DNA of 64,000 bases from Chrysomallon squamiferum (GCA_012295275.1 CM022672.1:34596001-34660000), one strand, 5' to 3'; numbered from the stretch's first letter, positions 271 through 47,371 are shown. Notes: generated by a model from the sequence alone, not told the origin. Program-made: numbers and translations.

Positions 271-3200
271 TGTGTCGATCAGGATTTTACGGTTCTGAGT
301 GTAACAAACTGTGTAACAGTCGTCATTGTCAGTCTGATTCGTGTCCTGCTGACACAGGTTCTTGTAATGGAGGATGTCAGGCTGGATGGAGTGGAGTTGA
401 CTGTACAGGTAACTAAATCATACCTACAGAGTGAGAATTTATAGAAAGATTTTTTCTTTCTTGTAAATGTTTTTACACAATGATAAGAGGGCGTTGGGGG
501 GGGGGGTAATTGAACTGTACAGGTTGAATATGAAAACATTTACAATACACCTCATGCAATAAAGAAAAAACAATTTCTGGACTGTTGCTAAGTTTTGCAC
601 TGTGGGAACTATTGTAGTGTGAACAAAGGACACAGTGGTAGAAGGAGAAGTGTTGGTTCAAGTAAGAAAACAGTCAACTGTGCTCGGTCAGAGAAAATCC
701 ATGATGTGTGGAAACTAACACTGACTGTTCAACGTCTCCTAACAGTTCACTTGCATCTCCTTTCACTGAAAAATTAAGTAGCAGAATGAACTGACATACC
801 GACATTAGACAGCAATTTGTAGGTGATTTTCCAAAAATCTGGACACAGATGATTAATATGTTATCAAGCAGATTTTTTCTCGGAAAATTAACCAAAATAT
901 CTTTCTTAACTGAGAATCCAGGTAATGAACTAATAGATTCGGCTCAACTTTACACTGCAGCAGTCAGTCACTGGACGCTGAGCAGTTCAACATGTGGTTT
1001 GAAATGTAATTATTAGTCCATCTATCCGTCCTTTTGGGTGTTTTTTTAATTATTATTATTATCATCATTGTTATTATTATTATTTTTAAAATAAATGTAG
1101 TCAATATTACCTGAAATGAATGTACGGAAATTATTTTACAGATTTATTATTATTTTGTTTTATTTATTTTACTTTACTCCCTACATATGTGTTTTGAAAA
1201 GTAATTATTAGACCGTTTGGGTGTTTTCTAAATTATGATTATTATTATTATTATTATTATTATTATTATTATTATTATTATTATTATTATTACTACTATT
1301 TTTTTTTTTTTTTTTGAGAAATGTCTGCACTATCATCTAAAATGAATGTATGGAAATTATTTTACACATTTATTTATTTAATTATATACTTATTTACTTT
1401 ACATATACGTGTGTCTCTTTGCGTGTGTGTGTGAGTGTTTTAACATTGTTATTATTATTATTATTATTATTATTATTGTTATTGTTATGGTTGATGTTGT
1501 TGTTGTTGTTGCTGTTTTTAATTAGAAGGTTAGGGCTGATTAGTTTTAACATTAAAGAACTATACTGAATGTAACTGTTTTAAAAAATACATTTATTTTC
1601 TTCTCTATTATTTAAAGTGCGAATCAAATAGAGATAAAGAAAGGGATACAATTAGAGAAGACAAATGAGTTATTTGTTTATTTTATTTATGTTTTAGTTA
1701 TGTGTCAGTCAGGTACAACTTATGGTACTAACTGTAACAAACTGTGTAAAGATCGTCACTGTTTGAATTCTCAACAAAACTGTCCTACAGACACTGGATC
1801 GTGTAGTGGACAATGTCAGACAGCCTGGGATGGAATAGATTGTACAGGTAATTAAACATTTTAGCAAAAGTCATGGAAGAAAGAAAAAATATTTAAAAAA
1901 CTTAAAAAGAAAAAAAGAAGAAAATAAAAGTAAAACAAAAAGCTTTAAAATACCTGTATAACTAATTTGAACTACCTGTGTAAGTAATTTGAACTGGCAG
2001 CTTTCCTTTCCTTTGAAATAGAGAGAGAGGAGAGATATATAAACCAGAAATGAGTTTACCATAAAAATACCGAACAGATTCAATCCCTATTTTATGTTTC
2101 TTCATATAACCATTATTTATTTTGTTTTATGTCTTGGATCACAATTCTTTCCAAACTTCAATAAAACACTTATGCCATTTTATTTATAATTTATATGTAC
2201 GAATCCAGTTATGTTTTAATATGTTTATAAGAGCAGCCAGGCACACACACTATATATATATATATATACACACATTAAATTATCTGGCTATGTTTTGTTA
2301 TTATTATGTTCTCCATTTGCAGTTGATCGTTGGGAAATGTTTATTTTTGACTGATACATAAAACTTTACATTATTATTACATATCTGTTTAAAAGCTGTG
2401 ATGTGATATATTTGAACCATTCATGTCCAGGCTAAACACAATACTTTTTATTCTAAAATTATATTTAATTTTCTGCGACTTGTGAATAATATTCTCTGCA
2501 ATGACAGAAATATTTCGAACACTTTTCTTTTTTTTTTTTTTTTTTTTTTCTTTGTTGTATTGATAAATTTGTCAGTGTTTATAAAGATAACATATAGCTG
2601 TAAAATAAAGTTCAGTCACGCGATATAATGACGCTTTATTTTCTATCAGTACTTATTTCTTGTTATTTGTCTCAATCTAGTTTAAAAAAGAAATCACTAC
2701 AGAAAAACATTTCTAACTAAAGCCTAATATATTATTTTATTTACTCGATTTTTTCGATGTTTTCAGTGTGTCACTCAGGTACAACTTATGGTACTAACTG
2801 TAACAAACTGTGTAAAGATCGTCACTGTTTGAATTCTCAACAAATCTGTCCTACAGACACTGGATCATGTAGTGGACAATGTCAGACAGGCTGGGTTGGA
2901 GATGACTGTACAGGTAATGAAACATTTTAGATGTGACTATCTTTGAAGAAAAAACAACTATTTATGTTTATATATATATATATCACCTTGAATTAATTAT
3001 TATTTTCACATTTCTTTTGATAATTTGTTCTGTTCGTCGTATCTTATTATACCAGTGATTCTCACTATTTGTCAGACAGGCTGGACTGGAGATGATTGTA
3101 CAGGTAATTAAACATTTTAGATGTGACTGTCTTTGCAGAAAAAGCCGAACTGCTTAAAGAATAATATTTATTAACAATTATGCTATGATTTGAAATCATT

Positions 3201-46700: not shown

Positions 46701-47371
46701 GCTCGTGTTTGATAATAAATATAATTCGTATAATGAAATATGTGCATCCACATCTTTATAGCTGATAAAAAATATCTTTATCAAACAATGTATTCACAGA
46801 ATACTAAGCCGAAATATTTTGTATCTCATAATACTTACTATTGTTATTATACTTACTTCTGTATCGTAGCCTATACTATACCTGCGTAAATCGACTGAAA
46901 ATCTACATCTTTAATTTTTATCAACAGCTAAGGTAAGTCTGTATTTCGAGTACTGAGGGGATCTTAATTATCTATGTAAAAGTACCTCTCCATGTGTTAT
47001 ATTTTAATTATATGAAATTTGCTCTTACTAACTTATAATGTAAAGAGAAATACATTTTCACAATGGCTCTGATCATACGAAAACGACCATCCTCTACTGA
47101 ACATTCAGTAACATTTACCAAGAATAACAACAGTCATCCCAGGACAGCAGCTACTCCGTCATCAGTGTACGAAGTATTTGATGAAGACGTCAATATCGTC
47201 ACACCAGCAAATCACAATAACACTCAAACAGTTTCATCAGGTGATGCGGAGACAAGTTATGTAAACACTTCACATCAAGAAGAACTCAATACTCAAGAAA
47301 TACACGATTATGATAAACTAGATATTGATGTTGTTGGACAGGGATCTCCATACGAAAAAATAAAAACGTAA
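37771..47371 (+). CDS. F-type lectin + 7 MEGF-like EGF exons + TM receptor with short Tyr-motif tail, no phosphatase (copy B)
   Basis: Exons 37771-37849 (signal peptide), 39094-39300 and 39687-39908 (F-type lectin: NVA..K.AYQ, ASRGVDG, WWELDLG, RNDFKWRR, RYVTV, EVEVF), EGF exons 40717-40854, 41678-41827, 42320-42469, 43398-43544, 43798-43941, 44092-44244, 44954-45088, TM exon 46488-46596, and a terminal exon ending TAA at 47371. The junctions between the TM exon and the last exon are uncertain. Confidence 0.85.
43554..43838 (+). repeat. Four tandem 70-72-bp copies of a splice acceptor plus EGF exon start
   Basis: Unit tgttttaaagagagtgtaaatatttttcag|tgtgtcagactggtgtgtatggttctagctgtgacaagtcac; the AGs end at 43583, 43653, 43725 and 43797. 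Confidence 0.92.

What the first reader, a model, noticed from the sequence alone, without database searches (positions are those of the whole stretch)
271..47371. Paired-receptor system: one lectin/EGF ectodomain wired to either a phosphatase or an ITAM-like tail
Seen: copies A and B share near-identical EGF exons and alignable introns (271-408 vs 40717-40854; 1698-1847 vs 41678-41827; intron 1848-2766 vs 42470-43397). Homology stops just after the exon at 44954-45088 and its dead twin at 4506-4558. From there A has its own TM exon plus PTP D1/D2, while B has an unrelated TM exon and a tail of about 100 aa with SVYEVF, TSYVNT and YDKL-x10-YEKI. Established: YxxL/I-x6-12-YxxL/I is the ITAM pattern, SxYxxI is an ITIM pattern, and vertebrate paired receptors (KIR, Siglec, SIRP) share ectodomains with opposite outputs. 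Inference: an invertebrate activating/inhibitory pair built by swapping cytoplasmic modules, in which A could also dephosphorylate B.
Basis: partly seen in the sequence, partly recalled or inferred. Interest (0 to 1): 0.8.

Follow-up and report, generated by a model that had tools for sequence, protein, structure and literature searches.

The report
Snail phosphatase/ITAM paired lectin receptors
Neighbouring snail genes share nearly the same outer receptor part but end inside the cell in either a phosphate-removing enzyme or a conserved ITAM-type tyrosine tail, a pairing also present in a related vent snail, and they likely act as an off/on pair that tunes how cells react to sugar-coated microbes.

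Summary
Real, and broader than reported. Gene A is an intact EGF-repeat receptor with a tandem tyrosine phosphatase. Gene B has an F-type lectin domain, seven EGF exons, its own TM exon and a four-tyrosine tail ending in YxxL-x10-YxxI. RNA contigs from one study show the same last EGF exon spliced to either TM type. Gigantopelta aegis holds both types. There the phosphatase and ITAM proteins share 89% of the ectodomain, against 51% to B, while the conserved phosphatase domain is only 72% alike across species. So both tails are old and the ectodomains are re-homogenised, as in Siglec-11/16. Corrections: the tail exon starts at 47062, not 47046; the window has AC, not AG, at that acceptor; a third, broken copy C was missed. 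Both architectures are described in Biomphalaria without ITAMs or pairing. This scan noted a similar pair on another genome (e1-9507145). Opposite signalling, a shared ligand and same-cell expression are untested; neutral homogenisation in a tandem cluster remains a fair rival. New variant of a known kind.

The parts
271..4124 (+). Gene A: four EGF-like exons (271-408, 1698-1847, 2767-2913, 3981-4124); its 5' end lies before the window
   Evidence: Open frame with AG/GT ends; first three are 92-97% identical to B exons over the whole alignment; an X1 contig joins the end of 3981-4124 to an A-type TM exon
4501..4557 (+). Dead half-copy of B's last EGF exon in A (no acceptor, donor reads CT)
   Evidence: 52 of 57 bases match 45032-45088; live versions of this exon splice to A-type and B-type TM exons in RNA
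4872..4974 (+). Gene A transmembrane exon
   Evidence: covered by contigs of 3 of 4 RNA runs
5716..9387 (+). Gene A juxtamembrane region and PTP D1, predicted active ([16 protein letters not shown] and Q-loop motifs present)
   Evidence: Pfam Y_phosphatase on two exons; 72% identical to G. aegis XP_041357574 D1
9563..13130 (+). Gene A degenerate PTP D2 (WPD and P-loop motifs lost) and C-terminal VYAN motif
37771..39908 (+). Gene B signal exon (37771-37849) and F-type lectin domain exons (39094-39300, 39687-39908)
   Evidence: Pfam F5_F8_type_C; best solved matches are F-type lectin domains 3le0, 3cqo, 2j1r
40717..45088 (+). Gene B: seven EGF-like exons, the last at 44954-45088
   Evidence: weak DSL/EGF Pfam hits on 4 of 4 exons scanned, 1 reaching its cut-off; last exon joined to the B TM exon in X1, X2, X3
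46488..46596 (+). Gene B transmembrane exon, not detectably homologous to A's
   Evidence: RNA cover
47060..47061 (+). Acceptor of the tail exon reads AC in the window instead of AG: base error, splice-defective copy or non-canonical intron
   Evidence: RNA joint 46596-47062 and an X5 variant with AG at this place
47062..47371 (+). Gene B tail exon with four tyrosines: VYEV (47168), YVN (47258), YDKL (47309), YEKI (47351)
   Evidence: six relatives at E up to 1e-3
49989..55088 (+). Copy C, 5' part: signal exon, frameshifted first lectin exon, second lectin exon, first EGF exon
56822..57021 (.). Assembly gap (200 N) between C's 5' part and the D2 exons
57165..58820 (+). Second set of PTP D2 exons, 90-100% identical to A's; the first lacks its donor

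Best explanation
A and B belong to a tandem cluster of snail lectin/EGF receptors in which one ectodomain type is joined either to a tandem phosphatase or to a four-tyrosine ITAM-pattern tail, and the two likely form an inhibitory/activating pair whose ectodomains are likely kept alike by repeated gene conversion or unequal crossing-over. Shown: the gene anatomy, both spliced forms in the same RNA runs, and the same pairing in G. aegis with likeness ending at the EGF/TM junction. Inferred mechanism: a glycan on a microbe or cell clusters B through its lectin domain. A Src-family kinase would phosphorylate the tail, a Syk/Shark-type tandem SH2 kinase would read the YxxL-x10-YxxI pair and Grb2 the YxN site, driving uptake or an immune response. 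A ligand that also binds A's matching ectodomain would pull an active phosphatase into the same cluster and erase the signal. Differences in the lectin's first half would then decide which ligands bring the brake along. Here the inhibitory partner would carry its own enzyme instead of recruiting SHP through an ITIM.
For: RNA: an EGF7-type exon is spliced to an A-type TM in X4 (joint 4557-4872) and X1 (2 contigs), and to a B-type TM in X1, X2, X3; TM-to-tail joint in X1, X2, X3. Of 3 runs laid on both regions, 2 hold both TM types. G. aegis XP_041357574 (PTP) vs XP_041359117 (ITAM): 89.3% over 394 ectodomain residues, 51% to B, dropping at the EGF/TM junction. D1 is 72% and the tail 43% alike across species. 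Second G. aegis group: XP_041374098 (PTP) vs XP_041374072 (ITAM) 72% over 416 residues, 65-90% per module in 7 of 8 modules. A single clade of PTP-type lectin domains is rejected, p-AU 4e-43, 11 rows. C-terminal ITAM pattern in 13 of 14 tails examined; spacer is 10 in 8 of 8 B-group tails while the Y1-Y2 distance varies from 25 to 34. An oyster ITAM receptor binds Syk (PMC6994640, passages). Siglec-11/16 are kept alike by gene conversion (PMC5701461, passages).
Against: No signalling, ligand or single-cell data. Homogenisation is also what a tandem array gives without selection. The one Haliotis PTP/ITAM pair retrieved shares only 44% (no module of the PTP protein above 57% to any row), and G. 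aegis XP_041357573 has no close ITAM partner among the hits. B and C differ at 20 of 121 non-synonymous sites in the first lectin exon against 8 of 269 in the next two exons, so ligands may differ; A's own lectin cannot be compared. B lacks the His of the fucose-binding triad. The last tyrosine also fits the ITIM pattern in 8 of 8 B-group tails. The window's B has AC at the tail acceptor. All RNA comes from one study, as short contigs that differ from the window at up to 18 places.
Confidence: 0.55

Rival explanations
1. By-product: the two receptor types work independently, and their ectodomains are alike only because the ectodomain is the one region that neighbours in a tandem array can exchange.
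For: The cluster is unstable: dead exon in A, frameshifted C, copied Hint exon fragments. Likeness is patchy. G. aegis XP_041359117 and XP_041357563 share 87% of the tail but differ in ectodomain, so modules mix freely. The Haliotis pair is not homogenised.
Against: Both tail types persist together in two G. aegis groups, in this window and in Haliotis. In both G. aegis pairs the PTP protein's closest ectodomain is an ITAM protein, not another PTP protein. Both types are in the same RNA runs.
Confidence: 0.2
2. Co-activation: A primes a Src kinase as CD45 or RPTP-alpha do (recalled), or is switched off when ligand dimerises it, so one ligand turns B on and removes or reverses the brake.
For: The nearest solved structures to the G. 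aegis orthologue are RPTP-epsilon, LAR and RPTP-alpha. A and 3 of 4 relatives end in a YAN motif, like the RPTP-alpha tail (recalled). PMC12297450 proposes ligand-driven opening or closing of the active site for snail RPTPs (passages).
Against: No direct evidence either way. Those matches are to the common tandem-PTP fold and do not place A in the RPTP-alpha subfamily.
Confidence: 0.12
3. B is itself inhibitory or a decoy: its tyrosines recruit SHP2, or the window's copy loses its tail through the AC acceptor and only soaks up ligand.
For: SxYxxI fits the last tyrosine in 8 of 8 B-group tails and the first tyrosine in 3 of 8. The spacer of 10 is longer than the usual 6-8 (recalled). Hydractinia Alr tails show the same ITAM/ITIM ambiguity (10.1101/2022.03.25.485889, passages). 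The nearest AG acceptors give short tails without the motifs.
Against: Fixed spacing suits a tandem SH2 reader. In 4 of 4 tails of the other G. aegis groups the ITAM pattern is kept while the last tyrosine does not fit ITIM. Transcripts with the full in-frame tail exist.
Confidence: 0.1
4. One gene with two alternative 3' ends, like Draper-I/II: B's ectodomain splices either to its own tail or on to PTP exons hidden in the gap.
For: An EGF7-type exon is spliced to an A-type TM; PTP D2 exons lie downstream of B beyond a gap.
Against: C, with its own signal and lectin exons, lies between. A has its own ectodomain. In G. aegis the two types are separate models that differ at 11% of ectodomain residues. 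One such X1 contig differs from A's twin at 2 places where B differs at 3.
Confidence: 0.03

Closest known systems
[quoted passage not shown]
   Same: Clustered receptors with signal peptide, galactose-binding/fucolectin domain, EGF region and TM, with either a small tail (1B) or two PTP domains (1C).
   Different: The paper calls the small tails 'without identifiable domain signatures'; ITAM, ITIM, immunoreceptor, concerted and activating occur 0 times in its main text. No pairing is proposed. I did not read its supplements or test Biomphalaria tails.
Biomphalaria sudanica SudRes1 MEGF/GBD receptor PTPs (PMC12297450; passages read)
   Same: GBD + multiple EGF + TM + tandem PTP, in duplicated clusters with EGF domain loss between haplotypes.
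   Different: ITAM occurs 0 times; no tyrosine-motif partner described. Orthology to A not tested.
Vertebrate paired receptors, e.g. Siglec-11/16 (PMC5701461, passages read); Siglec-5/14 and CEACAM1/3 (search listings only)
   Same: Lectin-type ectodomains of neighbouring genes kept alike by gene conversion, with different signalling ends.
   Different: Unrelated fold. The inhibitory member there uses ITIMs and recruited SHP (recalled); here it would be a catalytic receptor phosphatase. Opposite output is shown there, untested here.
Draper / MEGF10 / CED-1 engulfment receptors (PMC8092387; passages read)
   Same: EGF-repeat ectodomain with a cytoplasmic ITAM read by Shark/Syk; Draper-II is an inhibitory form that binds Corkscrew.
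   Different: B has an F-type lectin domain, no EMI hit and no NPxY; Draper's two outputs come from splicing of one gene and no member has a PTP domain.
Hydractinia Alr and Botryllus FF/FcoR receptors (10.1101/2022.03.25.485889, PMC12065747; passages read)
   Same: Invertebrate clusters with ITAM and ITIM tails; Alr2A/B/C have near-indistinguishable ectodomains with opposite motifs.
   Different: Ig-type allorecognition proteins; both arms use motifs, neither is an enzyme.

Membership tests
Paired receptors | High ectodomain likeness between members with different tails | tested here: met
   A/B EGF exons 92-97%; G. aegis 89% and 72%. Not met for the Haliotis pair (44%).
Paired receptors | Linked genes | tested here: met
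   A, B and C lie within 59 kb of the window. G. aegis partners have the same longest-contig length; their distance was not seen.
Paired receptors | Ectodomains homogenised after the tails diverged | tested here: met
   Within-species ectodomain 89% exceeds cross-species D1 72%; PTP-type clade rejected on the lectin tree. Protein level only; conversion tracts not mapped on DNA.
Paired receptors | Overlapping expression in the same cells | tested here: inconclusive
   Both types in 2 of 3 runs laid on both regions; tissue and cell type unknown.
Paired receptors | Shared ligand | not testable with these tools
   A's lectin is outside the window; the first lectin exon is the most divergent between B and C.
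Paired receptors | Opposite signalling output | not testable with these tools
   Motifs only.
ITAM receptor (B) | YxxL/I-x6-12-YxxL/I in the tail, conserved and beyond chance | tested here: met
   13 of 14 tails; shuffles at most 0.05% for the C-terminal form. Pattern as given in 10.1101/2022.03.25.485889. The tails are related, so not independent.
ITAM receptor (B) | Strict vertebrate spacer of 6-8 (recalled) | tested here: not met
   Spacers are 10, 9 and 12.
ITAM receptor (B) | Binds Syk/Shark tandem SH2 when phosphorylated | not testable with these tools
   Precedent in oyster only (PMC6994640).
Receptor PTP with active D1 (A) | TM plus tandem PTP with intact NRY, WPD, HCx5R and Q-loop in D1 | tested here: met
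   activity itself not assayed.
F-type lectin domain | Sequence kinship to solved F-type lectin domains | tested here: met
   Best PDB matches 3le0, 3cqo, 2j1r; 3cqo at 2e-10 for the G. aegis protein.
F-type lectin domain | Fucose-binding His/Arg/Arg triad (PMC5712786, passages read) | tested here: not met
   B keeps RxD and a later Arg but has no His at the aligned place; the triad varies among relatives.
Draper/MEGF10/CED-1 | EMI domain and NPxY motif | tested here: not met
   No NPxY in 14 of 14 tails; no EMI hit in three ITAM-type relatives; the N-terminal domain is a lectin.
Snail GBD/MEGF receptor family (Biomphalaria 1B/1C, SudRes1) | Signal peptide, GBD/fucolectin, EGF region, TM, with or without two PTP domains | tested here: met
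   B fits 1B fully; A fits 1C in the part inside the window, and its G. aegis orthologue has the lectin.
Snail GBD/MEGF receptor family (Biomphalaria 1B/1C, SudRes1) | Orthology to the Biomphalaria genes | not tested
   No Biomphalaria protein was among the hits.

The most novel reading that the evidence does not exclude
Snails run a widespread paired-receptor system in which the inhibitory member is a catalytic receptor phosphatase kept ligand-matched to an ITAM lectin receptor by gene conversion. The same family underlies the Biomphalaria schistosome-resistance loci LG5R and SudRes1, and in vent snails it may set tolerance of symbionts against engulfment.
Probability: 0.35. Interest if true: 0.85.

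Novelty: new variant of a known kind. Interest (0 to 1): 0.64.

Why it matters
Paired receptors are best known from vertebrates, where inhibition works through motifs that recruit a soluble phosphatase. A pair whose brake is an enzyme on a matched ectodomain would be a different design for the same logic. It gives a testable model for a mollusc receptor family that GWAS has tied to schistosome resistance but whose short-tailed members have no described signalling motif. Fucolectin, MEGF and receptor PTP families are listed among the expanded ones in the symbiotic G. aegis (PMC7895826, passages), so the pair is also a candidate for symbiont tolerance.

Tried and rejected
No whole genome is held, so copy number and A's 5' end could not be read. 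The word-based search with the tail found nothing among 210 candidates; HMMER found 6. The metagenome scan gave 154 pattern matches, none confirmed. The protein atlas did not answer. Predicted micro-exons at 46670-46683 and 46928-46932 could restore or break the tail frame, but no RNA contig covers them and the joints skip them: rejected. Homology of the two TM exons: rejected by codon shuffles. Homology of A's juxtamembrane region to B's tail: no signal, 64 of 500 shuffles as high. Homology of B-group tails to the second G. aegis group: supported for 3 tails (0 of 500), not for XP_041347307 (173 of 500) or Haliotis (71 of 500). Positive selection on the lectin exon: pN/pS about 1.9 but p = 0.29, not claimed. 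A misjoin at B's first microsatellite: homology to A continues across it and RNA joins the flanking exons. '26 of 27 modules match an ITAM protein best' is not used alone, since 47 of 74 modules were ITAM-type. The Haliotis pair grouping on the tree is trivial, being the only two rows of that species. No contig of X2 lay on A's TM exon; this shows no absence. No fold or complex job was sent. Literature searches for the pairing in molluscs listed no paper describing it; the library holds open papers only, and supplements of the Biomphalaria papers were not read.

Full report
Setting. The window is AT-rich animal DNA with one 200-base gap. No whole genome is held. The closest proteins come from the vent snail Gigantopelta aegis but are only 72-78% identical, so the source is inferred to be another related gastropod; the species was not determined.

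Gene A. Twenty-two exons from 271 to 13130 give an open frame with canonical splice sites: four EGF-like exons, a TM exon, a PTP D1 with [16 protein letters not shown] and Q-loop motifs, and a D2 that has lost them. Its signal and lectin exons lie before the window. A half-copy of B's last EGF exon at 4501-4557 has no acceptor and a CT donor.

Gene B. It has a signal exon, two exons of an F-type lectin domain, seven EGF exons, a TM exon and a tail exon. The first three EGF exons of A match B at 92-97% over whole alignments, and introns align. Likeness ends in the intron before the TM exons, near A 4737 / B 45328. The TM exons are no more alike than codon shuffles.

RNA. Five runs hold part of B's 3' end, four recorded as RNA from one study; all are assembled contigs. 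On 45760-47372 I laid 4 of the 5. X1, X2 and X3 join the last EGF exon to the TM exon, and 46596 to 47062 (1, 1 and 3 contigs; four more joints of diverged variants lie close by). This gives the full in-frame tail, and contigs of X2 and X3 run past the stop. The window reads AC at that acceptor, while an X5 contig has AG. So this copy of B carries a base error, a splice defect or a rare intron type; I cannot tell which. On 4210-5290 I laid the 4 RNA runs. An intact version of B's last EGF exon is spliced to an A-type TM in X4 (one 1,654-base contig that goes on for 1,211 bases, of which 30 are shown and resemble A's next exon) and in X1 (2 contigs). The same exon type is spliced to a B-type TM in X1, X2 and X3. 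X1 holds five contigs on A's TM exon with 1 to 9 differences, which points to several genes if the run is one animal (not known).

C looks broken or misassembled, and its link across the gap is not shown. B and C differ at 20 of 121 non-synonymous sites in the first lectin exon against 8 of 269 in the next two exons (p = 6e-6), but this is not significantly above the synonymous rate.

Relatives. Of 13 proteins found with a lectin/EGF query, 4 are PTPs, 6 have a TM and a C-terminal ITAM pattern, 1 has a short tail without it and 2 have no TM. HMMER with B's tail gave 6 relatives, two named G. aegis proteins and four unnamed fragments. B-group tails keep four tyrosines in order, with a spacer of 10 in 8 of 8. 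Three tails of a second G. aegis group match the B-group profile above all 500 shuffles; two others do not. I left out isoform and duplicate rows (P0003, P0005, P0013).

Concerted evolution. G. aegis XP_041357574 (PTP) and XP_041359117 (ITAM) share 89.3% of 394 ectodomain residues and each only 51% with B. Their likeness stops where the last EGF module ends. Across species, A's D1 is 72% and B's tail 43% identical to these same proteins. Both tail types are therefore older than the species split, yet ectodomains group by species and cluster. In the second group, XP_041374098 (PTP) is closer to XP_041374072 (ITAM, 72%) than that protein is to its ITAM paralogue XP_041374466 (61%), though those two tails are 82% alike. 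On a tree of 11 lectin domains one clade of the 4 PTP types is rejected (p-AU 4e-43; at least 4 changes of tail type). The oyster row, one unnamed row and C were left out, A has no lectin in the window, and one PTP row has only 30 residues. Against: the Haliotis pair shares 44%, and XP_041357573 has no close ITAM partner among the hits. The G. aegis and Haliotis proteins are automatic gene models.

Mechanism. Shown: anatomy, splicing of both forms, presence of both in two runs, conserved motifs, homogenised ectodomains. Inferred: ligand clusters B; a Src kinase writes and Syk/Shark reads the terminal tyrosine pair, as for Draper and MEGF10 (PMC8092387, passages) and an oyster ITAM receptor (PMC6994640, passages); YxN would bind Grb2 (recalled); a matched ectodomain brings A's phosphatase to the same cluster. 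I put this at 0.55. Rivals are neutral homogenisation (0.2), A as co-activator (0.12), B as inhibitor or decoy (0.1) and alternative splicing of one gene (0.03).

What is known. Both architectures are described side by side in Biomphalaria LG5R, with the short tails called featureless (PMC13712769, section 20), and the PTP form in SudRes1 (PMC12297450). Motif-based activating/inhibitory sets are known in Hydractinia, Botryllus and Draper. Six searches listed no paper on an ITAM partner matched to a receptor phosphatase; subscription journals and supplements were not covered. It is unchecked AI output, seen after my own analysis, and I do not count it as support.

Verdict. Function is untested, so it works like a paired receptor by prediction and is not yet shown to be one. 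New variant of a known kind; interest 0.64.

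Noticed in passing
window 18910-19776 (-): Single-exon torsin-like gene, 288 aa (Pfam Torsin 5.6e-17), between A and B.
   Followed up: partly
window about 31500-34363 (+): Multi-exon gene ending in a Hint module (Pfam Hint 5.5e-12); upstream exons seen by eye only.
   Followed up: partly
window 16598-16784 and 62115-62303: Copies of the Hint gene's last exon, about 97% identical, lie downstream of A and of the second D2 set, so they are part of the duplicated unit.
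   Followed up: partly
window 55950-56820: After C's first EGF exon the sequence switches at a microsatellite to DNA like the first introns of B and C: a further copy or a misjoin before the gap.
   Followed up: no
window 52918-53345: Scrambled second copy of the 3' part of C's first lectin exon.
   Followed up: no
window 43552-43848 and 3070-3143: Short repeats of the start of an EGF exon in B's intron, and a lone 3' exon fragment in A's intron: traces of exon gain and loss.
   Followed up: no
window 28959-29333 (+): ORF with an NCDETGL motif that recalls pogo/Tigger transposases (recalled, not searched).
   Followed up: no
window 6568-6655 and relatives P0001, P0002, P0019, P0020: The phosphotyrosine-recognition loop reads NRYQG in A but NRF or NKF followed by RG or TG in 4 of 4 relatives; the usual Asp/Asn is Gly (recalled), which may alter substrate choice.
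   Followed up: no
P0014 (XP_041357583): A G. aegis relative with a long EGF array, a TM and a 33-residue tail without ITAM: a possible third, decoy-like type.
   Followed up: no
window 9924-10529 and 20279-20969: Two tandem minisatellite arrays, one inside an intron of A.
   Followed up: no
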